From: Alphaproteobacteria bacterium
Lineage (GTDB): Bacteria; Pseudomonadota; Alphaproteobacteria; Rickettsiales; SXRF01
Direction of reading: 5' to 3'
DNA: 64,000 bases
NCBI GenBank assembly: GCA_039808985.1
Contig: JBDHUC010000003.1
Span: 18,523 to 82,522, forward strand
Of this stretch, positions 6,951 to 64,000 are shown piece by piece. Each line of letters starts with the position of its first letter. The first letter of the stretch is position 1. The translations under genes and the position numbers were made by a program. The notes beneath the pieces were generated by a model that saw nothing but the letters and a program-made list of their open reading frames with translations, was not told the origin of the DNA and searched no databases.

Positions 6951-6953
6951 GGG

Positions 6954-7280: not shown

Positions 7281-7284
7281 TACA

Positions 7285-7427
7285 AAATTCCCTCGCTGTC
7301 ATTCTGTGAGGTGTCCACTTCTTTTGTGGGCAACGGCACAGAATCTCCACCAATTATAAACAGACCCTGTGCTGCGGCTACACCGCCCACAGGATGACCA
7401 ATGCCCATATTCATGAAATTCCCTCGC
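7285..7427. mobile_element. MITE-like insertion between nuoJ and nuoK, flanked by a 12-bp direct duplication
   Basis: aaattccctcgc occurs at 7285-7296 and again at 7416-7427. The intervening sequence carries the inverted repeats gtcattctgtg (7298-7308) and cacaggatgac (7388-7398). The same termini bound the element at 38121-38209. Confidence 0.6.
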
Positions 7428-8034: not shown

Positions 8035-8037
8035 CTT

Positions 8038-8541
8038 TTACCTGTATCTTTCATCAGCAAGCAGGTTAGCCGCCAGCGCGCTTTCCCAGCGGTCGCCATT
8101 GGCCAGGAGCTTTTCTTTATTATACAATAACTCTTCATGGGTTTCCGCTGCGAATTCGAAGTTCGGCCCTTCAACAATAGCATCTACCGGGCAGGCTTCC
8201 TGGCAGAAGCCGCAATATATGCACTTGGTCATATCTATGTCATAGCGCGTGGTGCGGCGCGAACCATCCCCGCGAGCTTCAGCTTCGATAGTTATAGCCT
8301 GCGCAGGGCAGATAGCCTCGCAGAGCTTGCAGGCTATACAACGCTCCTCGCCGTTTGGATAACGGCGCAGGGCATGCTCGCCGCGAAAGCGCGGACTTAG
8401 AGGCCCTTTTTCATATGGATAGTTTATAGTAACAGGCTTTTTAAACATGTATTTAAGGGTCAGCATGAAGCCCGACACAAGCTCTGCCAATAAAAAAGCC
8501 CTCGCTGTCCTAGTTGCCTTCACTATCTTCACTCCCTGCAA
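8038..8541 (-). CDS. nuoI: NADH-quinone oxidoreductase subunit I (2x[4Fe-4S] ferredoxin-type)
   Basis: 167 aa with two cluster motifs, '[12 protein letters not shown]' and '[12 protein letters not shown]'. The annotated start overlaps the end of the dedA-like gene, so the exact start is uncertain. Confidence 0.93.
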
Positions 8542-9145
8542 TCTTTTTTCCTAAACGCGATATATAAAATATAATCCCAACTATTACAAGCAACACAACC
8601 ACGCCGGAAATATATGGCAGGTAATGATGCACCATCTCTTTATTATCGCCGATGAGATAACCTACTGTGGTAAGTATTGTCATCCATATCCCACTGCCAA
8701 GGCTTGTGTAAATACAGAATTTTTTTAAATCCATATGGCCAAGGCCAGCCGGAAAAGCGATGAAATGCCTGAGGCCTGGTATTAACCTGCCGGTAAAGGT
8801 TGAAATATCACCGTGCTTGCTGAAGAATTTATCCAGCTTATCGATCTTTTCATGGGTAAAGAAAAAATATTTTCCGTAGGCGTAGAAAAATTTACGCCCC
8901 AGGTAATAAGCTATATAATAGTTGGCAAGAGAGCCTCCCAAAGCCCCAAGCGTGGCCAGGCCCACTACAACAAAGAAATTCATATGCCCCTGCTGGACCA
9001 AAACACCGGCAGGAACCATGGTCACTTCTCCTGGTATAGGCACAAATGTGCTTTCCAGAAATGACATGATAAAAATACCCAGGTAACCAAAATGGTGTAC
9101 GAAATCAACCAGCCATTGACCAAATGCTTCAAGTGTATGTCCCAT
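8510..9145 (-). CDS. DedA/SNARE-associated family membrane protein, inserted between nuoH and nuoI
   Basis: '[21 protein letters not shown]' and '[17 protein letters not shown]' are DedA signature segments. The internal ATG at 9145 lies 2 nt after the nuoH stop codon. Confidence 0.8.
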
Positions 9146-9147
9146 GC

Positions 9148-10158
9148 CTATGCCGCCCAGAAAACAACGTAAGCCGAGGTAAGAACCACCCATACAAGTG
9201 ACAACGGCAGAAAAACTTTCCACCCTAGGCGCATCAACTGGTCATAACGATAGCGCGGCAGGGTAGCGCGTGCCCAGATGAAAGTGAACAGGCAAAGGCA
9301 GATTTTAAGCATGAACCAGATAAACCCCGGTATCAGGTTGAACAGCGCAATATCAGCCGGGGCCTGCCATCCGCCAAGGAATAATATGGAAGTCATCCCT
9401 GACATAAGTATCATATTGGCGTATTCACCGAGGAAGAACAGCGCAAAGGACATTGAGGAATATTCAACGTTATAACCAGAAACCAGCTCCGCCTCCGCTT
9501 CCGGCAGGTCAAAAGGATGGCGGTTGGTTTCTGCAAGAGCTGAGATAAAAAATACAACGAACATAGGGAACAAACCACCGAAGGCATGCCAGTGCAAAAT
9601 GCCGCCTGACTGGGCGTTGACTATGTCGCCAAGATTTAGTGAGCCAACTAACATAAGCACCGTAACTATTACAAAACCTATTGATACTTCGTAAGAAACC
9701 ATTTGCGCACTGGAACGTATCGCCCCTAAAAAAGCATATTTTGAGTTACTCGCCCACCCCGCCATTATTATTCCGTAAACACTTAATGAAGAAATGGCGA
9801 ACAGATATAATACGCCTACGTTAATATTGGCGATCACAAAATCCTGGGAAAGAGGGATAACTGCCCAGCCAAGAAGAGCCAGCATAAAAGTCAGCATCGG
9901 CGCCATAAGGAATATTACCCGGCTGGATTCGGAAGGAATAATTGTTTCCTTGAGAAATAATTTAAGCCCGTCAGCAAAAGGCTGGAGAAGCCCCCAGAAG
10001 CCGGTCACATTTGGCCCCCTGCGCAGTTGCATGGCAGCAATCACCTTACGCTCGGCAAGCGTAAGCATGGCGACACATATAAGCAAAGGCACCACCAGGA
10101 GCAATATCTTGCCCAGTATTATCAGTAGCGGCATAAGCATATTAAAAAAATCCTGCAT
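9148..10158 (-). CDS. nuoH: NADH-quinone oxidoreductase subunit H
   Basis: 336 aa with '[17 protein letters not shown]' and '[25 protein letters not shown]'. Confidence 0.97.
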
Positions 10159-45836: not shown

Positions 45837-48689
<2,853 letters not shown>

Positions 48690-51854: not shown

Positions 51855-51931
51855 GCACCCGTAGCTCAGTTGGATAGAGCGTTGCCCTCCGAAGGCAAAG
51901 GTCGGACGTTCGAATCGTCTCGGGTGCGCCA
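51855..51931 (+). tRNA. tRNA-Arg (anticodon CCG)
   Basis: The cloverleaf folds by hand. The acceptor stem is GCACCCG/CGGGTGC and the D stem is GCTC/GAGC. The anticodon stem TTGCC/GGCAA has loop CTCCGAA. The T arm is GGACG-TTCGAAT-CGTCT, and the 3' CCA is encoded. Confidence 0.93.
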
Positions 51932-52040
51932 TATTTCATTATAATACAACAACATAAAGTTTTCGACCACTGCTTTTTCCATGTATAAAACAGGTGCTAT
52001 TGCCCTATATACATATAAGCAGCATATGTTATAATGAAAC

Positions 52041-52313
52041 ATGAAGCTGAAAATAAAAAACTGTATCCATCTTTTATATATTGTACCTCTATTATGTAAC
52101 TTTGCTGCCAATGCAGCGCAAATGCGAACTTCCATACCGGTATCAGTTTATGTACTGCCAACATATAGAAGCGGCATAAAACCTGACAAAAAAATCGCTA
52201 TAAAGAAGAGCAACCTTCCCCAGCCGACGGCAAAAACCAGGAAAATAAATAATAAGCCATATGTATTCGACAGGCCATCCAGCGAGCCGCCACAAATTTC
52301 CGTTATAAGATAA
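52041..52313 (+). CDS. small hypothetical secreted protein upstream of the pilus operon
   Basis: 90 aa with the signal-like N-terminus 'LLYIVPLLCNFAANAAQ'. No other support. Confidence 0.3.
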   Translation: MKLKIKNCIHLLYIVPLLCNFAANAAQMRTSIPVSVYVLPTYRSGIKPDKKIAIKKSNLPQPTAKTRKINNKPYVFDRPSSEPPQISVIR

Positions 52314-52433
52314 AAATAGGGATTTGGCTCCCTTTTCTGTAGCAAATTGATACAACCTGTGAATTCAAAAATAATTTAATATTAAATTAATGGTTTTATA
52401 TTAGCCTGATGTCTTATCTTAAGGAGAAGGCCC

Positions 52434-52958
52434 ATGCTATTGCTTATGCGTTACTATTTTAAATCCATCCGCAGCTTTATTGCGTTTGCATTTTTTATTC
52501 CCATTATATTCATGCCGCTGCCGGTGCTTGCTGTACAGGCCACCGGATTGCTTTCCGTTTCCGCTACGGTTCTTTCAGTATGCGGTGTCACGGCAACGCC
52601 ACTGGCATTTGGGAATTATTCAGCAACAAATTCCTTACCGACTGATGCAACAGCCATCGTAACCGCCCTGTGCACTGCCGGTGTTTCTTATACCCTGGCA
52701 ATGGATGGCGGCCTTGGGTCAGGGGGAACGGTCACTAACCGTGTCCTGACGAATGGGCTTAATACGCTAAACTATACTGTTTATAGCAACGCCGGACGTA
52801 CCACCATCTGGGGTGACGGAAGCAACTCAACATCAACAGTAAGCGGAACTGCCGGGCTTCTGCCACAAAGCTATGCCGCTTACGGGCGAATACCGGCAGG
52901 ACAGCAATCTGCCGCCGGTGTGTATCTTGATGCCATCACTGTAACCCTGACCTATTAA
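52434..52958 (+). CDS. Spore-coat-U (SCPU)/CsuA-B-type pilin subunit
   Basis: A signal peptide is followed by 'LSVSATVLSVCGVTATPLAFGNY', 'YTVYSNAGRTTIWGDG' and the C-terminal 'AGVYLDAITVTLTY', which are hallmarks of SCPU-domain pilins. Confidence 0.85.
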   Translation: MLLLMRYYFKSIRSFIAFAFFIPIIFMPLPVLAVQATGLLSVSATVLSVCGVTATPLAFGNYSATNSLPTDATAIVTALCTAGVSYTLAMDGGLGSGGTVTNRVLTNGLNTLNYTVYSNAGRTTIWGDGSNSTSTVSGTAGLLPQSYAAYGRIPAGQQSAAGVYLDAITVTLTY

Positions 52959-52967
52959 GGACAGTCA

Positions 52968-53699
52968 ATGCAGAATTCGATTATAATGTTTTTACGGATT
53001 ATGATCAGAATACTTCCTGCGTTTACTGCTCATCAGGCATTAGCTGGAACATTTGAAGTAGCCCCCACTACGATTTCCCTGTCGCCGGAAATGCAAAATG
53101 GGGTTTTATATATAACCAACCGTGGCAATGATCCGGTTTACATACAAACAGAAGCGTTTGACTGGAAACAAACGCAAAAAGGCGATGAGCTTACACCAAG
53201 CGAAATGCTGCAGGTAAATCCACCAATGGCCGAACTTAAGCCAGGGCGCAAGCAAACCATTCGCCTTGCTGTAGCCAGGGATAGCGCTATTGAGAATAAA
53301 GAACGCGCTTTCCGTCTGCTTGCAAGCGAATTACCAAGCACCACCATTACAAACAATGAAGCTGTAAATGTACTCCTGCAATTCAGCGTTCCGCTATTTG
53401 TCGCGCCGCTTAAGAAAAACCCTGTGGCACTGGAATGGGGAATTGAAAATAATGACGGCAACATGATGCTCTCTGCCAGAAATGATGGAAACAGCCATGT
53501 CAAGCTTTCTGCGGTTAAAATCCAGGCTCCAGGTGGCAATGAGCTGGATGTTTCCAAAAAAACCATCAAATATATTCTTGCAGGAAGCACTGCATATTGG
53601 AAAATTGAATTAATGCAGATAATACATGGTGAAAAATACCATATTACTGCAAAAGACGATATGGGTGGCCAACTCAGCGCCACAATAATTCCACCATAG
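52968..53699 (+). CDS. periplasmic pilus chaperone (PapD-like, CsuC-type)
   Basis: 243 aa with 'FEVAPTTISLSP...YITNRGNDPVYIQ', 'QVNPPMAELKPGRKQTIRL' and 'LQFSVPLFV'. It lies between the pilin and usher genes. Confidence 0.85.
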   Translation: MQNSIIMFLRIMIRILPAFTAHQALAGTFEVAPTTISLSPEMQNGVLYITNRGNDPVYIQTEAFDWKQTQKGDELTPSEMLQVNPPMAELKPGRKQTIRLAVARDSAIENKERAFRLLASELPSTTITNNEAVNVLLQFSVPLFVAPLKKNPVALEWGIENNDGNMMLSARNDGNSHVKLSAVKIQAPGGNELDVSKKTIKYILAGSTAYWKIELMQIIHGEKYHITAKDDMGGQLSATIIPP

Positions 53700-53701
53700 C
53701 C

Positions 53702-56005
53702 ATGCGCAGGATAATACTAATTAATATTTTATTTTTATCTGCCGCAAGTAGCGCTAATGCCCAGGAAGATTTGCGATTACTGTTGGAGCTATGGGTAAAT
53801 GACACCAACAGGCACATAGTAAGCACTGTCATACAAAGGGATGATAAATTACTGGTAAGCGCACAGGATCTAAGCCTGGCAGGCATACAAACCAGCGCTG
53901 CTGAAACCGGCAAAGACGGGATGGTAGACCTGTACCAGCTTTCTCATGTAAATATGCGTTATTCCGATGTTGAACAAAAGCTTTTGCTCAGCGTAGGCCC
54001 TAGCCGCCTCCTCCCGCAGGTTTTTGACTTGAATAGCCAGAGAGTGAAAAATAAGGCGGAAAGCGCCAGCGGATTTATAGGCCAGTATGATATTACAGGA
54101 AGCGTGGATAATTTTGACAATACAAGGGATACATCAAGCCTTGGCACAGTGCTTGGCGGCACTTTTTTTACGCCAGACGGCAATATAACTGCAAATGGCT
54201 TTACCCAGACGCAACATTCCGGCTCACGAGCCGTGCGGCTGGATACGGCTGCAGAAATAAACGATCAGGAAAAACTGCGCAAATTTGTCATTGGGGATGC
54301 AGTTTCAGGAAGCCAGGCATGGGGGCGCTCAGTACGTTTTTCCGGCCTGCAAATAGCAACTGATTTTTCCCTGAGGCCCGACCTGAATACCATGCCCCTG
54401 CCAGCTTTTTTCGGACAGACTTCAGTTCCGGCCAATGTCGATATCTTTGTTAATTCGGCGCGAGTGTTTGAAAGCGAGGTGGAGCCAGGTACTTTTCAAA
54501 TAAACAACCTACCTGTCATAACCGGCAATGGACAGGCACAGGTGGTAGTGCGCGATGTAACTGGCCGGGAGGCCACTGTGTCCCTGCCCTTCTATGCCAG
54601 CAATTCCCTGCTGCGTCCCGGCCTTGATTCCTATGATTTTGATATAGGATTCCTGCGTAAGGGATATGGCCTGCAAAGTTTTGATTATGGCGAGCTGGCC
54701 GCAAGCGGGACTTACAGCACGGGCATCAATGATAAATTAACTATGGAAGGACATGTAGAAACCAGCCAGGACGTGCAACTGATAGGAGGCGGAGGCATTC
54801 TCGCGCTTGGTTCTTACGGCATTATTCATCCGGCGCTGGCAGTAAGCCACAGCAATATTGCAGATAATAGAGAAGCAGGTGCGCTTTATTCCCTGTCTTT
54901 TGAGGCGCAGAATAATCCATTTGGGTTCTTCGGGTCTTTTGGCATAACTTCTGGAAATTATAATGATATAGCCAGTAGCGATGGAAAACCGCCGCCTGAA
55001 TTGCAAATACAGCTAAGCACTAACGTCAACCTGGCAAAAAACGGTACGCTTGGCGGATCATTCATCGCTGCCAAACAGCACGACCAGGAAATGTCTAAAA
55101 TCGTCACCGCTTCTTATAACCTGCCACTTGGCGCAGGTTATAGCATAAGCACAACCGGATTTTATGACTACACACGTGGCGAAGTAGTAGCCCAGGCATT
55201 TTTCAGCATAGCCCTTGGCAGTAACGCCGTTGGCAATGTAAGCGTGCAAAAATCCAGGGATTCATACATTCAACAGGCAAGCTATACCGACCCGGCAAAT
55301 CCCGATGGCGGATTTGGTTATCAATTATCAGCATCGACAGGCGACAGCCGCATAGGACAGGCAAATGCAACCTGGATAGGGCAAAGGGGCAACCTTGACG
55401 GTGCAATCGCTGTGCGCGATGGCGATCTCGCAACCAGGGCAAGCGCCTCGGGCGGCCTTGTTTATATAGATGATTCACTATACGCGACCAGAAGGCCTAA
55501 TGGCGCAGTGGCGCTGGTGCGTACCGGCCAGGCAGATACAAAAATATATCAGGAAAATCGCCAGGTAGCAGTAGCCAATGAAGCTGGTAATGCACTGGTT
55601 ACAGGGCTGGTGCCTTTTGCCGATAACCGAATCTCTGTTGACCCGGCTAACTATAATTTTAAAACAATAATTGACGATGCAGAAAAAACTGTAACGCCAG
55701 CACGCAGCAGCGGTGTTATTGTAGATTTCACTCCACAGGCCAACTCCCCGGCCTTGCTTATGTTACGCCTTAAAGATGATTCCCTGCCACCAGTTGGAGC
55801 ACGTGTAACCTTAAATAATAGCACAGAACCATTAATTGTAGGACGGCGCGGAGAATTATTTATTGCCAATTTAAGTGAACCAATAGAAGGAAAGATAGAG
55901 TTTTCCAACAAATCCTGCATGTTCAGAGCTACGCCTGTGCATGCGCTCAATGACACCATTCCCCATCTGGATCCGGTTTATTGCGTAAGCAAGGAAAGCC
56001 AATGA
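53702..56005 (+). CDS. outer-membrane fimbrial usher (CsuD-type)
   Basis: 767-aa beta-rich protein with a signal peptide. Position in the SCPU chaperone-usher operon supports the call. Confidence 0.85.
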   Translation: MRRIILINILFLSAASSANAQEDLRLLLELWVNDTNRHIVSTVIQRDDKLLVSAQDLSLAGIQTSAAETGKDGMVDLYQLSHVNMRYSDVEQKLLLSVGPSRLLPQVFDLNSQRVKNKAESASGFIGQYDITGSVDNFDNTRDTSSLGTVLGGTFFTPDGNITANGFTQTQHSGSRAVRLDTAAEINDQEKLRKFVIGDAVSGSQAWGRSVRFSGLQIATDFSLRPDLNTMPLPAFFGQTSVPANVDIFVNSARVFESEVEPGTFQINNLPVITGNGQAQVVVRDVTGREATVSLPFYASNSLLRPGLDSYDFDIGFLRKGYGLQSFDYGELAASGTYSTGINDKLTMEGHVETSQDVQLIGGGGILALGSYGIIHPALAVSHSNIADNREAGALYSLSFEAQNNPFGFFGSFGITSGNYNDIASSDGKPPPELQIQLSTNVNLAKNGTLGGSFIAAKQHDQEMSKIVTASYNLPLGAGYSISTTGFYDYTRGEVVAQAFFSIALGSNAVGNVSVQKSRDSYIQQASYTDPANPDGGFGYQLSASTGDSRIGQANATWIGQRGNLDGAIAVRDGDLATRASASGGLVYIDDSLYATRRPNGAVALVRTGQADTKIYQENRQVAVANEAGNALVTGLVPFADNRISVDPANYNFKTIIDDAEKTVTPARSSGVIVDFTPQANSPALLMLRLKDDSLPPVGARVTLNNSTEPLIVGRRGELFIANLSEPIEGKIEFSNKSCMFRATPVHALNDTIPHLDPVYCVSKESQ

Positions 56006-56475
56006 AAAAAAATCCCATGAAAAAATTGCTGCTTATGTTTTGTATATGGTTCAAATCTTCAGCAAGCTACGCAGCCTGTACCGCAGGATTAGTCGCAACC
56101 AGCAGCGGCGGCATAAGCTTTGGCAATTACAGCGCCAACTCCGCCAGCGATAAAACCATGAACGGTACAGTTACAGCTAACTGCACCCTGGGCGGCACAC
56201 TCCCCAGCTTCACTATCGCGCTTTCAACCGGCGGTTCTAATACATTTTTATCGCGAACAATGAATTTACTGGTTGTGAATACTCTTGATTACAATATCTA
56301 CACCACTAACGGCTACACAACAGTATGGGGTGATGGCACCAATTCAACCGTTACACAATCTTATGGCGGCGGCAGCGGTTCTGTTAATTTCACAGCCTAT
56401 GGAAAAATTCCCACCGGACAATATGTACTGCCTGGCGCTTATGGTGATTCAATCACCATAACAGTCACCTATTGA
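56002..56475 (+). CDS. second SCPU-domain pilin/tip subunit
   Basis: 'ISFGNYSA', 'YNIYTTNGYTTVWGDG' and the C-terminal 'GAYGDSITITVTY' are present. The ATG overlaps the usher TGA (ATGA). Confidence 0.82.
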   Translation: MKKNPMKKLLLMFCIWFKSSASYAACTAGLVATSSGGISFGNYSANSASDKTMNGTVTANCTLGGTLPSFTIALSTGGSNTFLSRTMNLLVVNTLDYNIYTTNGYTTVWGDGTNSTVTQSYGGGSGSVNFTAYGKIPTGQYVLPGAYGDSITITVTY

Positions 56476-56876
56476 TAGATAAAATAAACGATAAATAACA
56501 GTGCGTTACTTTGCTTTGTTAAAGCAACACATTAACACGACCCGAAATGATTTGGCTGTAAAAAATACCCAATACAGTTTCCTGATTATTGATAATGTGT
56601 GTGTGTTGCCAGAAATTATAGCAAATAATAATTTTAAAATTATTGTTTTTTGCCTCTCCGATTATGCGGAGTAAGTTCAGGATTTCAGCTTTGACTTTAA
56701 TAGTCATTATTTATGATTTTTATATAATACAAGGAAGCCTTCCGGTTAAATTTTACAACATGATTTTATGCATTTACCAGAGCGTAAATTTCATTGTAAT
56801 ATACCGGGAATTACTTTAGAAAAAAACTATTATCACAATTAATTATTATGAAAATCACTGGAAGAAAACACATAGT

Positions 56877-58841
56877 ATGGGTGCGCGGCATACTGTAAGT
56901 TTAAAAAATATTTATATAGGCATAGCCAGTATTGCCTCCGCATTCACAGAACCATCTTATGTTTTTGCTGCATCAATGTATGAAAGCAATGACAATAGAA
57001 CCAATAATTATTTTGTTATTGTTGAGCCACAAAACAATACGGTTCAGGCCACGCCAACGCCCCAAGAACCGCCAATTCCAGCACTGATTGAACCGGTGCA
57101 GGCAAATAAGGAAATAGCTCTGCCCGCTGAAAAAATACTGCCTGCGAAAGAGCCGGTAATAGCTGTAAAAACACAACCGGTAATTCCTGCACCATCCACC
57201 CAACCAGTTGCTATTTTGCAAGAGGACAGGCAGATAGTGCTTCCTGCTGACAAAATATTACCAGCAAAACCTCAACAGGAACAAAGCAAACAAATACAAG
57301 AAGAAATAAAGCCACCTGCTCAAATAAAAGGTATAGAACCAGAAGAAATATTGCTTGGAGATAGTTCTAAATTAGACAGCCATGGTTTGAATATAGCTTA
57401 TGAAAAAAAAGCAACCGCAACCAATGAAAAAACTGATGAAAGAACAGATCTAAAGCCCATAAACCGTGACTACAGCGCATTCAAGCAATTCCTTGCGCAA
57501 AGCAATGGGGTTGTTGCTCTGAATGTCAGCGAATATGCGCAGCAAGCTAATGTAGTTGAGCCGATAAGGCTTGATGAAGCCGTAGCCTTCGCAATTAAAA
57601 ATAACCTGGAAATCAAGGCAGCTAATTCGCGTACTAAATCAGCGACACTGGAAAAAATAACTGCATATTCGCGGCTGCTGCCATCACTGGATGCCAAGCT
57701 ATCACGGGGAAACGAGCAATCCATGCCTGCATCATATAACGATATGTTCGGCAACCGTGTACTTGATGACAAGCATACGCGCAAAGACAGGACATTTGCC
57801 GTTCGCCAGCCACTTATCGACCTCGAGGTAATAGCTGACATATTAACCAGCGCTGACAAAGAAGCACTGACAAAAGTCCAGGGGCAGGACGAGAGGGATG
57901 GCATCGCTTATGATACGGTAAATATTTACCTGAAGCTGGTGCAGGCAAGAATTGCGGTCCAACTTGCTGACCAGTATCACGCCCATCTCGAGGAACTGCT
58001 TAACCGTATGAAAAACCGTGTAGACAGTGGCGGCGCAACTGTCGGCGATTTAGAAAGGATAAAGGGACATGCCAGCCTTGCTGAAGTTGCGCGCGCCGAA
58101 GCGTTGGGCGAATATGAAACCAACCTTGCCGAGTTCAGGCGCTTAACCCAGATAACTCCGGCACAGCTACAGGTTTCGGAAGTCCTCGTGCCTGACGTGC
58201 CTAAATCGTTGACCGATGCTATTTCAAAAGCCCTTAAAAACAACCCGTCATATAAGGCTACAGAGATCCAGCGCGATATAGCATCTTCAACTCGCAATAG
58301 CTCGTTTTCAAAACTGGCGCCCAAAGTTTCGCTCGAATATTCGGATACATATTCGTATAACGCGGGAGGTGCTGCAAAGGGAAACCCAGTTGACGGCGTT
58401 TACCCAAACCAGCAGGACAAACGTCTTTTACTGGTTGCGCACTGGACATTAAATGGCGGAATGGAAGTGGCAGAGGGTATGACAGCTCTGGAAAAGGAAC
58501 GCGAAACCAATTTCCGTTCTCTTGATGCGCGTTCGCGGATAGAAGAAGGCGTACGGGCAAGCTATAATGCTATCAACGCCGCCAACCAAAGGGTTGCCAT
58601 ACTGCAAAAAGGGGTTGAGTCTAACGAAAAAGTTGTGCGCGAATTTGAAGACCAGTATAAAAACGGCAGCAGGTCGGTTTTTGAGTTACTGGATGCGCAT
58701 GCCCAGCTTTATGGTAACCGCGTAAACCTTATGCGCATTGAAATCGCAAGGGCTTTGGCTGCATACCAGGTGCGCAGGCAAATGGGCGACCTGCTTACGG
58801 CATTAATTGAACAGGAACATTCAGCAAAGAGGGTAGATTGA
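56877..58841 (+). CDS. TolC-family outer-membrane channel with a ~225-aa Pro-rich repeat-containing N-terminal extension
   Basis: The core from about aa 229 ('PIRLDEAVAFAIKNNLEIKAA...') has the two-repeat TolC coiled-coil/barrel pattern. The N-terminus has a signal peptide followed by the repeats 'ALPAEKILPAKEP' and 'VLPADKILPAKPQ'. Confidence 0.85.
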   Translation: MGARHTVSLKNIYIGIASIASAFTEPSYVFAASMYESNDNRTNNYFVIVEPQNNTVQATPTPQEPPIPALIEPVQANKEIALPAEKILPAKEPVIAVKTQPVIPAPSTQPVAILQEDRQIVLPADKILPAKPQQEQSKQIQEEIKPPAQIKGIEPEEILLGDSSKLDSHGLNIAYEKKATATNEKTDERTDLKPINRDYSAFKQFLAQSNGVVALNVSEYAQQANVVEPIRLDEAVAFAIKNNLEIKAANSRTKSATLEKITAYSRLLPSLDAKLSRGNEQSMPASYNDMFGNRVLDDKHTRKDRTFAVRQPLIDLEVIADILTSADKEALTKVQGQDERDGIAYDTVNIYLKLVQARIAVQLADQYHAHLEELLNRMKNRVDSGGATVGDLERIKGHASLAEVARAEALGEYETNLAEFRRLTQITPAQLQVSEVLVPDVPKSLTDAISKALKNNPSYKATEIQRDIASSTRNSSFSKLAPKVSLEYSDTYSYNAGGAAKGNPVDGVYPNQQDKRLLLVAHWTLNGGMEVAEGMTALEKERETNFRSLDARSRIEEGVRASYNAINAANQRVAILQKGVESNEKVVREFEDQYKNGSRSVFELLDAHAQLYGNRVNLMRIEIARALAAYQVRRQMGDLLTALIEQEHSAKRVD

Positions 58842-58842
58842 C

Positions 58843-59505
58843 ATGGCTGGCGGCGGAAATGGAAAAGAACAAAATTACTGGCCAGGGTTCGTGGATGTAC
58901 TAAGCAATGTGGTGCTGACACTGGTATTCGTTCTGGTAGTATTCGTTATGGCACTGGCCCTTTCGGCAAATAAGGTTGAAAAGAGGATGCAGGAAATACT
59001 TAAGGAAAAAGCGGCATCGGAGAGCACCAGCAAGCCGCAGGAAACGCAGGCGGCGGTAGAGATAAAGCATAATGAATCAGGAGCAGCCAGGAAAAACGAT
59101 ACTGTAACCAGCAGCGGCAGCGTAGAAATCGAAAACAATGATACAACCCAGCAAAGCGGCACAAAAACTATTGACGCACCTGTTGATATACGTGAGTCAT
59201 CGGGGAAGATAGTTCTGTATTATCCTCTATCTGGAGTAGCCTTGAGCGACAAAACGGCTGAAAAGCTCCAGAAAGCTTTACTTTATAACAAGGAAAATCT
59301 CAGTAAATACAAGATTATCCTGAACTCCTATCTTGGCCAGGAACAATACAGCGTTGCCAACCGACTGGCATATTACAGGGTACTGTATATTCGTAAATTC
59401 CTTATAGATAATGGGATTGCCGATAACCAATCAATAACCAGCAAGATATTACAACCAGAAAAACCCGATGTCGGGCATGTAGAAATTATTTTGGAAAAAA
59501 ATTAG
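58843..59505 (+). CDS. MotB/OmpA-like protein (single TM with conserved Asp, C-terminal OmpA-like domain)
   Basis: 'NYWPGFVDVLSNVVLTLVFVLVVF' fits the MotB/ExbD-type plug/TM pattern, with Asp18 at 58894-58896. The C-terminal 'SVANRLAYYRVLYIRKFLIDNGI' resembles the OmpA_C 'N..LS..RA..V...L' helix. Confidence 0.7.
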   Translation: MAGGGNGKEQNYWPGFVDVLSNVVLTLVFVLVVFVMALALSANKVEKRMQEILKEKAASESTSKPQETQAAVEIKHNESGAARKNDTVTSSGSVEIENNDTTQQSGTKTIDAPVDIRESSGKIVLYYPLSGVALSDKTAEKLQKALLYNKENLSKYKIILNSYLGQEQYSVANRLAYYRVLYIRKFLIDNGIADNQSITSKILQPEKPDVGHVEIILEKN

Positions 59506-59506
59506 C

Positions 59507-60826
59507 ATGCCACCTAAATTGCCTAAAATACCCGCGCACGGAATAAACCTGATAAAGGACTTAAAGATGCGCCGCAGGATGGAAGGGCTGCGCCTGTATC
59601 TGGGTATTATTGCTTCCTGTACCGTTCTTATAATTATATGGGCGTCATTTGCACAGGTGGATAAAGTGGTAAGAGTTAGTGGCAAAATAATCCCATCAGG
59701 GCGCGGCCAGGAAATACAGCATTTGGAAGGCGGGATAGTTGCATCAATACAAACTACCGAAGGAGCTGCGGTTAAGAAAGGCGACCTGCTGCTTACAATT
59801 GATGATGTTACAGCCGGTGCCAACCTTGACGAAACAAAAGTAAAGCTTAACGCCCAGCGTGCGAAGGCCATAAGGCTGGACGGAGAAGTAAAAGGAAAAG
59901 ACAAGCTGGATTTTCCGGATGATTTAAGCAATACAACTGCGGCAAAGGCCGAGCAAAGCCTGTTTTTATCACGCCGTGAAAAACTACGCCAGGAAATGCT
60001 TATCCATGAAAGCACTTTAAACCAGCAAGCCGCCAGGCTGAATGAAATAAAGACCCGGCGCAGCAAGCTTGCAGAAGAACTCAATACCGCCAACAACCGT
60101 GCAAAGCTGGTAGAGGAAATGGCGGCGCGAGGCTCGGCATCAAAGCTTGAAGTCCTTGATTCGCAGGAACGGAAGAAGCGGCTGGACACAGAGCTGAGCG
60201 ATACGGCAACCAGCATACCAACATTAGAAGCAGCAATCGGCGAAGAAAAAGCCCGTACCAAAGCTTTGCAGACTGATTTTATAAACAGCGCCCAGGGCGA
60301 CCTTGTTGCAGCAATCGCCGAGAAAGAACGGCTGGAAAAAGTACTTCTTGGTGACTCCGACCGTTATAAGCGTACCGAAATACGCGCCCCTATGGATGGG
60401 ATTATAAACCGCATAAGCGTTAATACTATTGGTGGGGTCATAAAACCCGGCGACAAACTTATTGAGCTGATACCTTATACCAACGAAGTGCTTATAGAGG
60501 CACGTGCCAGACCACAGGATCGCGGCTATTTGAAGCCAGGGCTTGACGCAACTGTGCGTATTTCCGCCTATGATGTTGGTGAACTCGGGGTTTTAAAAAG
60601 CAAGGTTGTTGAAGTAAGCGCCGACACCATGGTTGACCAGCGTGGCGAAGCCTATTACCGGGTTAACCTCCTGGTAAGCGCCATACCCGAAAGCTACAAA
60701 AACCATATGATGGTTCCTGGAATGACCGCAACTGCCGATGTAGTTACCGGTAACAGGACCGTTATGGGACTTATACTCTCGCCTATACGCAAATTCACTT
60801 ATAATATTTTCAGGGACTCAATATGA
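59507..60826 (+). CDS. HlyD-family type I secretion periplasmic adaptor (membrane fusion protein)
   Basis: 439 aa with an N-terminal TM, 'VDKVVRVSGKIIPSGRGQEIQHLEGGIV', a long coiled-coil hairpin, and 'IRAPMDGIINRISVNTIGGVIKPG', typical of TIGR01843-type adaptors. Confidence 0.88.
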   Translation: MPPKLPKIPAHGINLIKDLKMRRRMEGLRLYLGIIASCTVLIIIWASFAQVDKVVRVSGKIIPSGRGQEIQHLEGGIVASIQTTEGAAVKKGDLLLTIDDVTAGANLDETKVKLNAQRAKAIRLDGEVKGKDKLDFPDDLSNTTAAKAEQSLFLSRREKLRQEMLIHESTLNQQAARLNEIKTRRSKLAEELNTANNRAKLVEEMAARGSASKLEVLDSQERKKRLDTELSDTATSIPTLEAAIGEEKARTKALQTDFINSAQGDLVAAIAEKERLEKVLLGDSDRYKRTEIRAPMDGIINRISVNTIGGVIKPGDKLIELIPYTNEVLIEARARPQDRGYLKPGLDATVRISAYDVGELGVLKSKVVEVSADTMVDQRGEAYYRVNLLVSAIPESYKNHMMVPGMTATADVVTGNRTVMGLILSPIRKFTYNIFRDSI

Positions 60827-62616
60827 TCATAATATCACCGATATTGCAAAACATGCGGAAACGTAACCCTATAGCTTACCGCGATAATGTAATAATAATA
60901 AAGATAATGTCGCCTCTTGTCCTGGTTGTATTGCTGGGGCTTTATTTTAATGAGTTCGTATGGCGCGCCATCGAAGCCGACTTTGCCATAAGTGGCGCAA
61001 TCTTATCCAGTACAATCTATGGAACGTTTATAATCCTGCAGAGGCTACGTAATGCACAACAGGATTTTCGTATTATAGAACGCTTCGGGCAGGAAGCCCA
61101 TTCCGGGGTTCCGATGAAGGAATTGCTTGATGAGCCATGGATACGTGACCGTTATGTACGCCATTACCTGAAGCATATCGCAGAAACAGGCGGGACACTC
61201 AGCTCGCAGCTTGACCAGAACGCAATAGAAAGCGAGCTGCATGCATTGCAGGCAGATTACGACAGCAAGCTTGAATTCCCGCAATTCCTTGTTGGTTTCA
61301 TGATTGCTATGGGGTTGCTTGGAACATTCATCGGACTGCTTGAAACGCTTACCGGTATTTCTGCAATGCTTGGCTCAATGGGCTCAGGAACAGCAAGCGC
61401 CGAAGAGCAGTTCAAGGGGCTGGTAAGCGAGTTGCGCAAACCTCTTGCGGGTATGGGTATCGCGTTTTCAGCATCCATGTTCGGCCTGATTGCAAGCCTC
61501 ATGCTTTCTATAATGATGACCAACCTGCGGCATTTTATAAGCCGTGTTGTCATGTGCGCCCGCAACGTAATGCACGACCTCACAGAAATAACCCGTAAAT
61601 CACAGCCTAACCAGCATAGCCATGGCACGGGTGAAACAGACGGCAGAGATAGGGCCGGTAGGAATAGTGATGATGCAGGGTTCGGCCTTTCAACCCGCAA
61701 TAGCGGGAACATACTGCTTGCCAGCCGCATGGACCAGCTCCTGAAAAAACTGGAAATAGTTATAAAATCATTCGAAAACAGTATAGCCGGAACTGCAAAG
61801 ACAAACGAACTTCTGGGATTTGGCCCACGTATGAAGGAAACCGCCGAGAATACGCTCGAGGAAATACGCTCGTTATCCTCATCAAACCTTGAACAGCAAA
61901 GGATAATGCAGCAGATAGCCGACTCGCAGTCACTGCTGGTAAATGCAATTAATTCCATTTCCGACACCCAAAGACGTTCACAAACTGAATTATCTAGCAT
62001 TTTCAGGGTAGTTGGTGAAAAACTAGGCTCAATCGAGCAATCGACAATCAGCAGCGGAAGGCATCTTTCAGAAATCAGGGAAGGTGTTAACAATATGGAG
62101 GTATTGCAATCACCATTTAAGGCCATGATGGCTGATATTGACCGGCAAAGCACCCTTTTTGAAGAGCTTGTTGTCGAGGAACGGAGCATAAAAGACCTTA
62201 TGGTTCTGGTGCTTGACACGCACCGCCGTTCGCAAACCGAGGTTATAAACTCGCTAAGGATTGTAGTAGAACGTGCGCATTCCATAGAAAAGACCAATAT
62301 CGGAACAGGCCGTCATTTATTTGAAATTAAGGAATTATTTACCAATTTCGGCGCATTATATGGTATGGTGGAAACTATGTCTTCAAACATAAACCACCAC
62401 ACTATATTATTTGAAGAAATGATTGCAGAGGCACGGAGAATAAAAGACTCAACCGGGACAGCAAAAGAAGGAAACGCAGAAGTAGTTGATGGGGACATAG
62501 AGGAGATTGACCTGGATAAAATAGACCTTAGCAATATAGATCTGAGCGAGATAGACCCTGATAATATAGATATAAACCAATTGATAAAACGCAGCAGGAC
62601 AGATGATGAAAAATAA
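60823..62616 (+). CDS. MotA/ExbB/TolQ-like proton-channel protein with a long repeat-containing cytoplasmic tail
   Basis: It has 4 predicted TM helices with a ~80-aa loop between TM2 and TM3. The core 'FLVGFMIAMGLLGTFIGLLE...LAGMGIAFSASMFGLIASLMLSI' spans about 61270-61543. A ~350-aa helical tail follows, containing a tandem 84-aa repeat and an acidic 'IDL' repeat end. Confidence 0.7.
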   Translation: MIIISPILQNMRKRNPIAYRDNVIIIKIMSPLVLVVLLGLYFNEFVWRAIEADFAISGAILSSTIYGTFIILQRLRNAQQDFRIIERFGQEAHSGVPMKELLDEPWIRDRYVRHYLKHIAETGGTLSSQLDQNAIESELHALQADYDSKLEFPQFLVGFMIAMGLLGTFIGLLETLTGISAMLGSMGSGTASAEEQFKGLVSELRKPLAGMGIAFSASMFGLIASLMLSIMMTNLRHFISRVVMCARNVMHDLTEITRKSQPNQHSHGTGETDGRDRAGRNSDDAGFGLSTRNSGNILLASRMDQLLKKLEIVIKSFENSIAGTAKTNELLGFGPRMKETAENTLEEIRSLSSSNLEQQRIMQQIADSQSLLVNAINSISDTQRRSQTELSSIFRVVGEKLGSIEQSTISSGRHLSEIREGVNNMEVLQSPFKAMMADIDRQSTLFEELVVEERSIKDLMVLVLDTHRRSQTEVINSLRIVVERAHSIEKTNIGTGRHLFEIKELFTNFGALYGMVETMSSNINHHTILFEEMIAEARRIKDSTGTAKEGNAEVVDGDIEEIDLDKIDLSNIDLSEIDPDNIDINQLIKRSRTDDEK

Positions 62617-62646
62617 ATCGCTGAAATTGGCTTAGGGCAGTAAAAA

Positions 62647-64000
62647 ATGGCGCGTAATATGATAGTACAGCAAAATGAGGCAGGCGTATATGAGCTAGCT
62701 GGTATTACACGCGCTGAAATTACCAAGGTTGATGTTGTCGATATTGATATAATCATCCTTACCAAAAACGGCGATCAGATTGTGCTCCCCGATGCAGGTA
62801 TAGCGTCAATGGGAGAAGTCCCGCCCAAGGTAGCCTTTAAGGACCAGACCATATCGGTCGATGCGTTATTCGCAAGTGTCGGGGCAACCCTGCATAGTGT
62901 TGACAGCTCAACTATAATCACCAGTGCCGACCCGGAAGCAAGCAAAGGCACCATCAGCGAAAAGGAGATGAAGGCTGCCGTTGAAAAAGCCGTTAAGGAG
63001 GCTGTAAAAGAAGCTAAGGCTGAAGCCGAGCATAAGCAGCAGGAGCAACAGCAACACCAGCAACAGCAGACCGCCTCCCTTACAACAAACACCGAAAGCT
63101 CGGTGGAAAATATGGTGGAAAAGGCGCAGAAGATAATTGATAACCTGCATTCGCATGATTACAGCTACGTCCCGCCGCATGAATTCGTCCCGCCTCCGGC
63201 AGCGGCAGCTTCGCCCCCCGGCGTCCCTGCCCCGATCAGCCTGACACCGGTTACAACCCTGTTTATGGGAAACGTGGTCAGCACTACTTATGATACGACG
63301 ACATCACCGGGAACAACGATAATTTATGGCGGCGGCGGGGCTGTTGGGTCGGATTCTTCCGCGCAGATCGGGCCACGAAATGCCTTGCAATTCTCAGCAG
63401 CGACCATTGCCGGAACTTCCGGCAATGACCTGATATATGCCGAAGGCCCGGCTTTGGGAAACTCCAACCCCGCTGTCAGCACTTCCAATTACGCCAAGGA
63501 ATTCATATTGAATGTTGCCGGGTATTTCATAACCCTCAATGACATAGCGTTCTCCGGTGTCCCTGCAGGGGTTACGATAGTTGGTGCAACCAATCATGGC
63601 GGCGGCAACTGGACATTATCCGCTGATTATGTAAAGCACGCCCAATCATTTACAATGGTCTATGATTCAGCGGGAAGCGGCAGCTTCGATATAACAGTTG
63701 ACGTTACCGGGCAAACCACTCGTGGCTCAGCCTTCCATAGCGAGCAGAACTTCCGCTTTCAATATATGGATGTAACCAATGTGAGCCAGGTTACAGATCA
63801 GACCCTAATATATGAGGACCATGGCCACCTGCAGGAAATATATATACTTCCGACTATGGACCAGCCAAACATAATAACACTGGACAGCGGAACAGACACG
63901 GTTTATGGGGGCCGTGGAAGCGACACCATAACCGGAACAACCGGGGATAAAACCGTTTATGCCCGTGAAGGCGATGACAGCGTTGCGCTGGGCAATGGTA
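62647..64000 (+). CDS. N-terminal part of a very large RTX/T1SS-type adhesin (3' end outside window)
   Basis: It is not in the ORF track because the frame is open to the window edge. My hand translation begins MARNMIVQQNEAGVYELAGITRAEITKVDVVDIDIIILTKNGDQIVLPD... It ends in '...VYGGRGSDTITGTTGDKTVYAREGDDSVALGNG' (GGxGxD-type nonapeptides). It lies directly downstream of the TolC/HlyD genes. Confidence 0.75.
   Translation, partial: MARNMIVQQNEAGVYELAGITRAEITKVDVVDIDIIILTKNGDQIVLPDAGIASMGEVPPKVAFKDQTISVDALFASVGATLHSVDSSTIITSADPEASKGTISEKEMKAAVEKAVKEAVKEAKAEAEHKQQEQQQHQQQQTASLTTNTESSVENMVEKAQKIIDNLHSHDYSYVPPHEFVPPPAAAASPPGVPAPISLTPVTTLFMGNVVSTTYDTTTSPGTTIIYGGGGAVGSDSSAQIGPRNALQFSAATIAGTSGNDLIYAEGPALGNSNPAVSTSNYAKEFILNVAGYFITLNDIAFSGVPAGVTIVGATNHGGGNWTLSADYVKHAQSFTMVYDSAGSGSFDITVDVTGQTTRGSAFHSEQNFRFQYMDVTNVSQVTDQTLIYEDHGHLQEIYILPTMDQPNIITLDSGTDTVYGGRGSDTITGTTGDKTVYAREGDDSVALGNG

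What the first reader, a model, noticed from the sequence alone, without database searches (positions are those of the whole stretch)
56877..64000. Candidate novel envelope machine: a T1SS-like TolC + HlyD operon in which a MotA/MotB-type proton-channel pair occupies the place of the ABC exporter, next to a giant RTX adhesin
Five same-strand genes are packed with 1-nt, 1-nt, overlapping (ATGA) and 30-nt junctions. They are a TolC-like channel, a MotB/OmpA-like protein, a T1SS-type HlyD adaptor, a MotA/ExbB/TolQ-like protein and a giant adhesin with RTX nonapeptides. The MotB/OmpA-like protein has a single TM helix carrying the conserved Asp in 'GFVDVLS' and a C-terminal OmpA-like domain. The MotA/ExbB/TolQ-like protein has 4 TM helices, the 'GLLGTFIGLLE' and 'AFSASMFGLIASL' segments and a ~350-aa helical tail. 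I found no Walker A/B or ABC signature ORF anywhere between 56.5 and 64 kb, although every characterised T1SS needs an ABC ATPase. OmpA-like accessory genes are known in some RTX-adhesin loci. A cognate MotA-like partner interleaved with the adaptor by adjacent or overlapping start/stop codons is not something I know to be described. The MotA-with-long-tail plus MotB-with-peptidoglycan-domain architecture is reminiscent of ZorA/ZorB of the Zorya defence system, here in a completely different context. My hypothesis is that a PMF-driven, peptidoglycan-anchored stator unit is mechanically coupled through HlyD to TolC. It could power or gate secretion, retention or release of the megadalton adhesin. 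The main caveat is that the ABC component may lie downstream of the adhesin gene, beyond the window.
Basis: partly seen in the sequence, partly recalled or inferred. Interest (0 to 1): 0.85.

Follow-up and report, generated by a model that had tools for sequence, protein, structure and literature searches.

The report
SiiAB-like proton motor in T1SS operon
This is the first five genes of a six-gene type I secretion operon for a large RTX protein; its two MotA/MotB-like accessory genes are distant relatives of Salmonella SiiB/SiiA, and the "missing" ABC exporter very probably lies just past the end of the window.

Summary
The central claim, that the MotA/MotB pair replaces the ABC exporter, does not hold. 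I fetched about 90 related loci. Wherever the sequence runs far enough, a T1SS ABC gene follows directly, apart from two rearranged or frameshifted loci. In the closest relatives (81-87% identical MotA-like protein) the operon is TolC–MotB-like–HlyD–MotA-like–RTX (1342-1396 aa)–ABC (666 aa). The window simply ends inside the RTX gene.

A MotA/MotB-type pair inside a T1SS is also already described: SiiA/SiiB of Salmonella SPI4. The MotB-like protein's best structural match is the SiiA peptidoglycan-binding domain. Profile comparison links both families specifically to SiiA (E 5e-13) and SiiB (E 8e-9), not to TolQR, ExbBD or MotAB.

What remains new is modest. This is a large, unannotated sister family of SiiAB. 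It has interleaved gene order and RTX rather than Ig-repeat substrates, and it occurs in Alpha-, Beta- and Gammaproteobacteria. The likely function is PMF-dependent control of surface retention versus release of the RTX protein. That function is inferred, not shown.

The parts
56877..58841 (+). TolC-family outer-membrane channel (654 aa). The first ~230 aa after the signal peptide form a Pro/Gln/Lys-rich extension.
   Evidence: PF02321 OEP 124 bits. TIGR01844 132 bits, below its 225 cutoff, matching residues 231-646. Orthologues sit in the same position in related loci.
58843..59505 (+). SiiA-like (MotB-like) subunit, 220 aa. It has an N-terminal TM helix carrying invariant Asp18 (58894-58896), a disordered linker (residues 64-106) and an OmpA-like peptidoglycan-binding domain (residues 112-220, 59176-59502).
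   Evidence: D18 and the WPGFVD motif are invariant in 49 sequences. AF2 mean pLDDT is 77, and above 90 for residues 112-220. The top Foldseek hit is SiiA-PD 6QVP: E 3.8e-6, target TM-score 0.85, rmsd 2.2-2.4 Å. hhalign against the SiiA family gives probability 97.9%, E 4.8e-13. BLASTP against SiiA gives 23% identity over 181 aa, with R174/L175/R179 aligned to SiiA R162/L163/R167.
59507..60826 (+). T1SS HlyD-type periplasmic adaptor (439 aa).
   Evidence: TIGR01843 318.5 bits against a cutoff of 208.65. 24% identical to SiiD over 403 aa, E 9e-20.
60823..62616 (+). SiiB-like (MotA/ExbB/TolQ-like) subunit, 597 aa. The four-helix TM core is residues 1-260 (60823-61602). The C-terminal part, inferred cytoplasmic, has long helices over residues 292-545 and contains a duplicated ~80-aa module (61963-62202 and 62215-62454).
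   Evidence: PF01618 30.8 bits against a gathering score of 22.9. PADLOC ZorA1 E 3.4e-10. AF2 core pLDDT is mostly 80-96. Foldseek matches ExbB, TolQ, PomA and ZorA. hhalign against SiiB gives probability 95.8%, E 8e-9 over 196 columns, against ≤3% for TolQ, ExbB and MotA. The tail repeat has 35/80 identities and scores 167, against 25.6±4.8 for shuffles.
62647..64000 (+). 5' part (451 codons) of the RTX-repeat substrate gene, cut by the window end. It has a conserved N-terminal region, a Lys/Glu/Gln-rich helical stretch, a Pro-rich linker, then a β-rich region and the first RTX repeats.
   Evidence: PF00353 26.3 bits. Collinear with the 1396-aa L004 protein. The N-terminal region is conserved across related loci. 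At least 1232 aa in L001.

Best explanation
The region is the first five genes of a six-gene type I secretion operon: TolC-like channel, SiiA-like protein, HlyD adaptor, SiiB-like protein, RTX substrate. A conventional T1SS ABC exporter very probably lies just beyond the window end.

The ABC/HlyD/TolC core exports the ~1,300-1,400-aa RTX protein in the usual ATP-driven, C-terminus-first way.

The SiiB-like and SiiA-like proteins form an inner-membrane proton channel of the MotAB/ExbBD/ZorAB type. A 5:2 stoichiometry is assumed by analogy. Asp18 of the SiiA-like subunit would be the proton-binding residue. Its small OmpA-like domain would anchor the unit to peptidoglycan.

By analogy with Salmonella SiiAB, the unit does not replace ATP. 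It uses or senses the proton-motive force to decide whether the N-terminal end of the substrate stays held in the secretion channel (surface display) or is let go (release).

Shown here: gene content, homology to SiiA and SiiB, conservation of the key residues, conserved synteny, and presence of the ABC gene in relatives. Inferred: stoichiometry, proton conduction, peptidoglycan binding, contact with the ABC/HlyD, and the retention/release role.
For: ABC gene downstream in relatives:
- L004 (MotA-like 87% identical): RTX 3865-8055, ABC 8061-10061, with PF00005 and PF00664. Its best NCBIfam match is TIGR03375, the LssB-type T1SS ABC.
- L089 and L090 (81% identical): OEP 733 aa, 235 aa, HlyD 439 aa, MotA_ExbB 602 aa, HemolysinCabind 1342 aa, ABC 666 aa.
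- tblastn finds the ABC gene in every locus that extends past the RTX gene, or past the MotA-like gene in Oxalobacteraceae. The exceptions are L033 and L035.

Conserved interleaved order: 80 GTDB species loci and distant members at E 1e-24 to 1e-36.

Homology to SiiAB:
- Foldseek top hit is SiiA-PD 6QVP.
- hhalign gives 97.9%/4.8e-13 for the SiiA family and 95.8%/8e-9 for the SiiB family.
- Controls against E. coli TolQR, ExbBD and MotAB give ≤3% probability, and the reciprocal comparisons agree.
- BLASTP aligns WPGFVD with WPSFVD, and R174/L175/R179 with R162/L163/R167.
- Asp18 is invariant.

Published SiiAB function:
- SiiAB conducts protons, and this needs Asp13. SiiA binds peptidoglycan through R162 and R167 (10.1101/641415).
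- Deleting siiAB leaves SiiE secretion intact but cuts adhesion and invasion. SiiB binds the ABC protein SiiF (PMC12607715).
- Acidification increases SiiE surface retention and CCCP decreases it (PMC6272769).
Against: - The window itself stops before any ABC gene, and I could not extend this genome's own contig. ABC presence here is therefore by inference from relatives.
- Identity to SiiA and SiiB is only 23-27%, and the tails do not align, so function may have diverged.
- The substrate is an RTX-repeat protein, not an Ig-repeat adhesin. The ABC protein in relatives lacks the N-terminal C39-like domain that SiiF has. The gene order also differs.
- How SiiAB itself works is still unresolved in Salmonella.
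- No experiment exists for any member of this family.
Confidence: 0.7

Rival explanations
1. The pair is required for translocation itself. The PMF-driven unit supplies energy or opens the HlyD-TolC conduit, so the RTX protein cannot be secreted at all without it. It would be a co-energiser of the ABC exporter rather than a retention switch.
For: The pair is kept, translationally coupled and interleaved with HlyD and TolC, across very divergent members. That fits a core subunit better than an optional regulator. The ABC proteins here lack the C39-like domain, so the system differs from SPI4.
Against: In the only studied homologue, deleting siiA or siiB does not reduce SiiE secretion (PMC12607715). 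Many T1SS that export RTX proteins work with ABC, HlyD and TolC alone (established knowledge).
Confidence: 0.17
2. One reading: an ABC-less T1SS-like machine in which the MotA/MotB-type pair takes the place of the ATPase and drives secretion with the PMF.
For: No ABC ORF lies within 56.5-64 kb of the window.
Against: The window ends inside the RTX gene. A T1SS ABC gene follows the RTX gene or the MotA-like gene in all relatives with enough sequence, bar two rearranged or frameshifted loci. These include loci 81-87% identical to the window's MotA-like protein.
Confidence: 0.03
3. The pair is a Zorya-type or otherwise independent stator module, for phage defence or envelope maintenance, that merely sits next to a T1SS.
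For: There are weak ZorA and ZorB model hits. The long helical tail recalls ZorA.
Against: The scores are far below the curated cut-offs (20.6 bits against 500). The Pfam-annotated genes of the sampled loci include nothing beyond T1SS components that could be a ZorC/D/E-type effector. The genes are interleaved with HlyD through start/stop overlap across three proteobacterial classes. Authentic SiiA and SiiB give the same weak Zor hits.
Confidence: 0.03

Closest known systems
SiiA/SiiB of the Salmonella enterica SPI4 type I secretion system (SiiABCDF plus the adhesin SiiE)
   Same: - A MotB-like subunit with an N-terminal TM Asp in a WP(G/S)FVD motif, a disordered linker and a minimal OmpA-like domain with the reduced R-L-x3-R motif.
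- A MotA/ExbB-like subunit with GLLGTF and PL.GM..AF motifs and a long helical C-terminal tail.
- Both are encoded in one operon with TolC-like, HlyD-like and ABC genes and a large Ca2+-binding secreted protein.
- Specific profile-profile homology.
   Different: - Only 23-27% identity.
- Gene order is TolC–B–HlyD–A–substrate–ABC, or …A–ABC–substrate, rather than A–B–OMP–MFP–substrate–ABC.
- The substrate is an RTX-repeat protein of 1.1 to over 3.2 kaa rather than a 5561-aa Big_13 adhesin.
- The ABC matches the LssB-type model only from position ~140, so it has no C39-like domain.
- The TolC homologue carries a long N-terminal extension.
- Hosts are environmental Alpha-, Beta- and Gammaproteobacteria rather than Enterobacterales.
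ZorA/ZorB of the Zorya anti-phage system
   Same: The same sub-branch of the stator superfamily by weak HMM hits to the TM core (ZorA1 E 3.4e-10, ZorB1 E 1e-4). The A subunit has a long helical C-terminal tail. The B subunit has a peptidoglycan-binding domain.
   Different: Scores are far below the family cut-offs. No Zorya effector-like genes appear among the annotated neighbours. The context is embedded in a T1SS. The helical part of the tail is shorter (about 255 residues, in an up to ~350-aa C-terminal region) and has its own repeat module.
ExbBD and TolQR (Ton and Tol-Pal motors)
   Same: The fold of the A-subunit TM core, with Foldseek target TM-scores of 0.5-0.64. Both use the inner-membrane PMF for an outer-membrane process.
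   Different: hhalign probability is ≤3%. The B subunit has an OmpA-like domain rather than a TolR/ExbD-type domain. There is no TonB or TolA partner gene. There is an extra N-terminal TM helix and a long tail.
LapA/LapB-C-E with LapG/LapD (two-step T1SS adhesin retention)
   Same: A T1SS whose large Ca2+-binding substrate is probably held at the cell surface by its N-terminal region, with regulated release.
   Different: No LapG-like protease or LapD-like receptor genes lie in the flanks of the relatives examined. Control would come from a PMF-dependent channel rather than from c-di-GMP-controlled proteolysis.

Membership tests
SiiAB-type T1SS auxiliary proton-channel pair | B subunit: a single N-terminal TM helix with a conserved Asp (SiiA Asp13). 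| tested here: met
   Asp18 is invariant in 49 homologues. It aligns with SiiA Asp13 (WPGFVD against WPSFVD) in BLASTP and hhalign.
SiiAB-type T1SS auxiliary proton-channel pair | B subunit: a disordered linker plus a small OmpA-like peptidoglycan-binding domain with the reduced motif (SiiA R162, L163, R167). | tested here: met
   In the AF2 model residues 64-106 have pLDDT below 50 and residues 112-220 above 90. Foldseek rank 1 is 6QVP SiiA-PD, with target TM-score 0.85. R174/L175/R179 align to R162/L163/R167. R174 and R179 are invariant.
SiiAB-type T1SS auxiliary proton-channel pair | A subunit: a MotA/ExbB/TolQ-type TM core specifically related to SiiB. | tested here: met
   PF01618 scores above its gathering score. 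hhalign against the SiiB family gives 95.8%, E 8e-9, over 196 columns. TolQ, ExbB and MotA give ≤3%.
SiiAB-type T1SS auxiliary proton-channel pair | Encoded in one operon with the T1SS OMP, MFP, ABC and substrate genes. | tested here: met
   OMP, MFP and substrate genes are in the window. The ABC gene is beyond the window end but present in relatives.
SiiAB-type T1SS auxiliary proton-channel pair | SPI4 gene order siiA-siiB-siiC-siiD-siiE-siiF and a giant Ig-repeat (Big_13) adhesin substrate. | tested here: not met
   The order here is TolC–B–HlyD–A–RTX(–ABC). The substrate has RTX repeats and no Big_13.
SiiAB-type T1SS auxiliary proton-channel pair | Proton conduction, peptidoglycan binding, binding to the ABC protein, and control of substrate retention. 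| not testable with these tools
   Known for SiiAB from 10.1101/641415, PMC12607715 and PMC6272769. No data exist for this family.
Canonical type I secretion system | HlyD-family T1SS periplasmic adaptor. | tested here: met
   TIGR01843 318.5 bits against a cutoff of 208.65.
Canonical type I secretion system | TolC-family outer-membrane protein. | tested here: met
   PF02321 124 bits against 22. TIGR01844 132 bits is below its 225 cutoff.
Canonical type I secretion system | ABC permease/ATPase. | tested here: inconclusive
   Absent from 56.5-64 kb because the window ends inside the RTX gene. Present next to the RTX or MotA-like gene in relatives. The window's own contig could not be extended.
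Canonical type I secretion system | Substrate with RTX nonapeptide repeats. | tested here: met
   PF00353 26.3 bits in the window fragment. In the full-length L004 homologue it scores 175 bits over 10 stretches.
Zorya ZorAB | ZorA and ZorB family models at curated thresholds. | tested here: not met
   NCBIfam ZorA_4 scores 20.6 bits against a cutoff of 500. The PADLOC ZorA1 and ZorB1 hits are weak and cover only the TM core.
Zorya ZorAB | Adjacent effector genes (ZorC/ZorD, ZorE or ZorF/G). | tested here: not met
   The neighbours are TolC, HlyD, RTX and ABC genes in the window and in relatives. The Pfam lists of the sampled loci show no other candidate effector gene inside the operon.
Flagellar MotAB stator | Specific similarity to MotA and MotB, and a flagellar gene context. 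| tested here: not met
   hhalign gives 2.8% for MotA and 0.2% for MotB. No flagellar genes are nearby.

The most novel reading that the evidence does not exclude
This family, SiiAB and ZorAB together form a distinct clade of 'tailed' 5:2 ion-driven motors. In T1SS operons the working part would be the cytoplasmic helical tail of the A subunit, which varies in length through repeat modules. PMF-driven movement of the tail would act on the ABC nucleotide-binding domains, or on the still-cytoplasmic N-terminus of the substrate, to clamp or release it. That would be a general PMF 'clutch', independent of LapD/LapG, for surface display of RTX proteins across Proteobacteria.
Probability: 0.25. Interest if true: 0.6.

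Novelty: new variant of a known kind. Interest (0 to 1): 0.4.

Why it matters
In the papers I found, SiiAB is studied only in Salmonella SPI4, and how it couples the proton-motive force to a T1SS is still an open question.

This work shows a large sister family. A profile search found 98 clusters (at 50% identity) at E≤1e-30 and 770 at E≤1e-10. About 80 species-representative genomes carry the family. It has the same key residues as SiiAB but different gene order, substrates and ABC type.

That gives comparative material: covariation between the pair and the ABC/HlyD, tail-length variation, and conservation of the substrate N-terminus. It also gives non-pathogenic culturable hosts, such as Herbaspirillum, Herminiimonas and Magnetospirillum, in which the mechanism could be tested.

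It does not reveal a new kind of ABC-less secretion machine.

Tried and rejected
1. ABC-less machine. Rejected after finding the ABC gene directly downstream in relatives.

2. Extending this genome's own contig. Look-ups with the MotA-like and MotB-like proteins returned only a 23.5-kb contig that ends inside the RTX gene, plus short contigs. The 94,870-bp contig listed was not returned.

3. Sequence-only searches of PDB chains with family profiles. No SiiA, MotA, ExbB or ZorA hit appeared, only a marginal Pal match at E 0.033. The relationship became visible only through predicted structure and profile-profile comparison.

4. Obtaining SiiA and SiiB sequences. No Salmonella collection was available. 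The database returned authentic entries named 'SPI-4 type I secretion system auxiliary protein SiiA' at 98% identity, and their contigs gave siiB. All comparisons use the retrieved sequences.

5. Zorya membership. Rejected: scores are below the cut-offs, there are no effector genes, and SiiAB gives the same weak hits.

6. BLASTP self-comparison missed the tail repeat. A direct alignment with shuffling controls confirmed it.

7. Literature searches for T1SS together with ZorA, or for SiiAB homologues outside Enterobacterales, found nothing on this family. Subscription-only papers were not searched.

8. BLASTP of the TolC-like protein against SiiC was not significant.

Full report
**1. What is in the sequence**

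ORF listing confirms five co-directional genes:
- 56877-58841 (654 aa)
- 58843-59505 (220 aa)
- 59507-60826 (439 aa)
- 60823-62616 (597 aa)
- an ORF starting with ATG at 62647 that is still open at 64000

The junctions are 1 nt, 1 nt, a 4-nt ATGA overlap and 30 nt.

Profile searches identify the genes as follows:
- A TolC-family channel: PF02321, 124 bits.
- A T1SS HlyD adaptor: TIGR01843, 318.5 bits against a cutoff of 208.65.
- A MotA/ExbB/TolQ-family protein: PF01618, 30.8 bits against a gathering score of 22.9.
- An RTX-repeat protein: PF00353.

The 220-aa protein has no Pfam hit. Its N-terminus matches the N-termini of 'peptidoglycan-binding protein' PRK09039 models.

Asp18 is codon 58894-58896. 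GLLGTFIGLLE (residues 164-174) and AFSASMFGLIASL (214-226) lie in almost invariant blocks. No ABC-like ORF lies between 56.5 and 64 kb.

The surroundings are ordinary chromosome: the nuo operon, PBP1, UvrA, RecO and ParC.

**2. The ABC exporter is not replaced; the window just ends too early**

The MotA-like protein belongs to a well-conserved family. A scan of one genome per GTDB species returned 80 loci:
- Alphaproteobacteria: Magnetospirillum, Rhodospirillaceae, Micavibrio, Oleispirillum
- Betaproteobacteria: Herbaspirillum, Herminiimonas, Oxalicibacterium, other Burkholderiales
- A Pseudomonas (Gammaproteobacteria)

phmmer with the window's five proteins shows the same interleaved order in nearly all of them: TolC, MotB-like, HlyD, MotA-like, then a protein sharing the N-terminal region of the window's RTX protein.

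Motif scanning and tblastn then show a T1SS-type ABC gene in every locus whose sequence extends far enough. It sits directly after the RTX gene in the Alpha/Gamma arrangement. It sits directly after the MotA-like gene in the Oxalobacteraceae arrangement. Nearly all loci without it end inside the RTX gene or at the contig end. L033 is rearranged and L035 looks frameshifted.

In the nearest relatives the operon is complete:
- L004 (MotA-like 87% identical): RTX 3865-8055 (1396 aa), ABC 8061-10061 (666 aa). The ABC has PF00005 and PF00664, and its best NCBIfam match is the LssB-type T1SS ABC model, from model position ~140.
- L089 and L090 (81% identical): OEP 733 aa, 235 aa, HlyD 439 aa, MotA_ExbB 602 aa, HemolysinCabind 1342 aa, ABC 666 aa. 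The flanking genes are unrelated to the window's.

L001 is the strain-level copy, 99.8% identical from window position 51914 to 64000. It shows that the RTX gene continues for at least 1232 codons before that contig ends.

I could not retrieve the rest of this genome's own contig. The ABC gene is therefore inferred here, with high confidence. 'Giant adhesin' is not supported for this lineage. Some distant family members do have RTX proteins of more than 2,800-3,200 aa.

**3. What the MotA/MotB-like pair is**

*B subunit.* AF2 with a 49-sequence alignment gives a TM helix plus extension (residues 16-61), a disordered linker (64-106) and a confident α/β domain (112-220, pLDDT above 90). In a Foldseek search of the PDB the first hit is the peptidoglycan-binding domain of Salmonella SiiA (6QVP): E 3.8e-6, target TM-score 0.85, rmsd 2.2-2.4 Å, 20% identity. 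OmpA-like domains, Pal and MotB periplasmic domains follow.

*A subunit.* The first 260 residues are modelled with high confidence. They match ExbB and TolQ (target TM-score 0.5-0.64), then PomA and ZorA. Residues 292-545 form four long helices.

By alignment with TolQ, the protein has one extra N-terminal TM helix, and the tail is cytoplasmic. This topology is an inference.

The tail contains a duplicated ~80-aa module (residues 381-460 and 465-544). It shows 35/80 identities and scores 167, against 25.6±4.8 for shuffles. The region C-terminal to the TM core ranges from about 175 to 450 aa across the family.

**4. The known precedent**

The literature search turned up SiiA/SiiB of the SPI4 T1SS.
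- SiiAB are inner-membrane proteins of the Mot/Exb/Tol family. They form a proton channel that depends on SiiA Asp13.
- SiiA has a disordered linker and an OmpA-like domain with a reduced peptidoglycan-binding motif (R162, L163, R167) (10.1101/641415).
- Deleting siiA or siiB does not stop SiiE secretion but reduces adhesion and invasion. SiiB binds the ABC protein SiiF (PMC12607715).
- Acidification raises SiiE surface retention and CCCP lowers it (PMC6272769).
- A 2025 review of force transducers lists 'type I secretion (SiiAB)' among the pentamer:dimer motors (PMC12204202).

**5. Is this pair a SiiAB homologue?**

Sequence-only PDB searches did not find SiiA. The database entries are named SiiA and are 98% identical to the bait. 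From their contigs I obtained siiB from Salmonella, Yersinia mollaretii and Hamiltonella.

Results:
- Profile-profile, MotB-like family against SiiA family: probability 97.9%, E 4.8e-13, 165 columns spanning the TM helix, linker and peptidoglycan-binding domain.
- Profile-profile, MotA-like family against SiiB family: probability 95.8%, E 8e-9, 196 columns spanning the whole TM core.
- Controls with E. coli TolQ, ExbB and MotA give ≤3%. TolR, ExbD and MotB give <1%. The reciprocal comparisons agree.
- BLASTP aligns the B subunits end to end: 23% identity over 181 aa, WPGFVD against WPSFVD, and R174/L175/R179 on R162/L163/R167.
- BLASTP aligns the A subunits over TM3-TM4: 27% identity, E 8e-10.
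- HlyD and SiiD are 24% identical over 403 aa. TolC against SiiC is not significant.

Authentic SiiA and SiiB give the same weak PRK09039, ZorB1 and ZorA1 hits as the window proteins. So SiiAB, this family and ZorAB appear to share a sub-branch of the stator superfamily.

**6. Size and depth of the family**

An exhaustive profile search of 1.84 billion cluster representatives finds 98 clusters at E≤1e-30, 770 at ≤1e-10 and 1331 at ≤1e-3.

I looked up four distant members, with E-values from 1e-24 to 5e-50. The three with usable contigs (E 1e-24 to 1e-36) all lie between a HlyD gene and a large downstream gene. That gene is an RTX protein in two of the three. A small MotB-like gene and an OEP gene lie upstream. 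The fourth contig was too short to tell.

The association with T1SS is therefore old and robust, not a local accident.

**7. Most likely mechanism**

I propose a conventional ATP-driven T1SS (ABC, HlyD and TolC) that exports the RTX protein C-terminus first.

The SiiB-like:SiiA-like unit is presumably 5:2. It would be anchored to peptidoglycan through the SiiA-like domain and gated through Asp18. It would use or sense the PMF to control whether the substrate's conserved N-terminal region stays lodged in the channel (surface display) or is released.

That N-terminal region consists of a β-rich segment, a Lys/Glu/Gln-rich helix, a Pro-rich linker and a second β-rich segment. By eye it resembles the β/coiled-coil/β layout described for SiiE, but I did not test this.

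Shown here: homology, conserved residues, synteny, and presence of the ABC gene in relatives. Inferred: stoichiometry, proton flux, peptidoglycan binding, partner contacts and the retention role.

The main rival is that the pair is needed for translocation itself.

**8. Novelty and verdict**

The concept is known and the pair is a distant SiiAB homologue. The striking claim of a T1SS without an ABC falls.

What is new is a large, unannotated sister family. Sources call its members 'hypothetical protein' or 'ExbB/TolQ'. It has a different operon layout, RTX substrates, an ABC without a C39-like domain and a TolC homologue with a long N-terminal extension, and it occurs in environmental Proteobacteria.

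I rate it a new variant of a known kind. Interest is moderate, mainly as comparative and experimental material for the unresolved question of how SiiAB-type motors act on a T1SS.

Noticed in passing
window 51855-51931; L001 1060-1095: A tRNA-Arg(CCG) gene lies immediately upstream of the pilus/T1SS block. The near-identical strain L001 keeps only about the last 18 nt of this tRNA. Before that it has unrelated DNA encoding a cNMP-binding/TIR (CAP12-PCTIR) protein. This looks like an integration hot-spot holding an extra, defence-type element in the other strain.
   Followed up: partly
window 52434-56475: A complete SCPU/Csu-type chaperone-usher pilus operon (SCPU 174 aa, PapD-like chaperone 243 aa, usher 767 aa, SCPU 164 aa) lies directly upstream of the T1SS operon on the same strand. 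It is not present next to the operon in the relatives L089 and L090.
   Followed up: partly
window 56877-57570: After its signal peptide the TolC-like protein has an extension of about 230 aa, rich in Pro, Gln and Lys, with repeated '(L)PA(E/D)KILPAK' motifs. The TolC model only matches from residue 231. Relatives also have long TolC homologues (733 aa in L089, against 439 aa for SiiC). The role is unknown.
   Followed up: no
window 62521-62557 (MotA-like residues ~560-585): The extreme C-terminus of the MotA-like protein carries acidic pentapeptide-like repeats (…IDLDKIDLSNIDLSEIDPDNIDIN…). They show up as a 15-nt tandem repeat. They are absent from most homologues in the alignment.
   Followed up: no
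L092 6001-8018 (Salmonella siiA/siiB); PADLOC and NCBIfam hits: Authentic SiiA and SiiB hit ZorB1 and ZorA1/ZorA3 models and the N-terminus of PRK09039 'peptidoglycan-binding protein' models, as the window proteins do. E. coli TolQ reaches only 49% probability against the SiiB profile, and ExbB and MotA reach ≤4%. This suggests that SiiAB and Zorya ZorAB belong to one 'tailed' sub-branch of the stator superfamily.
   Followed up: partly
L045-L083 (Oxalobacteraceae loci), e.g. L057 11638-13341: In Herbaspirillum, Herminiimonas and Oxalicibacterium the ABC gene sits between the MotA-like gene and the RTX gene, not after the RTX gene. The MotB-like protein there nearly reaches the Pfam OmpA threshold (26.0 bits against 27.2).
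   Followed up: partly
L101 1-9848: A distant member (E 1e-24) has a second HlyD gene and the ABC gene upstream of the OEP gene. It also has a much longer (440 aa) protein in the MotB-like position.
   Followed up: no
window 45837-48689; L092 1196-4021: uvrA lies about 8 kb upstream of the operon in the window, and uvrA-ssb directly flank SPI4 in Salmonella. This is probably coincidence.
   Followed up: no
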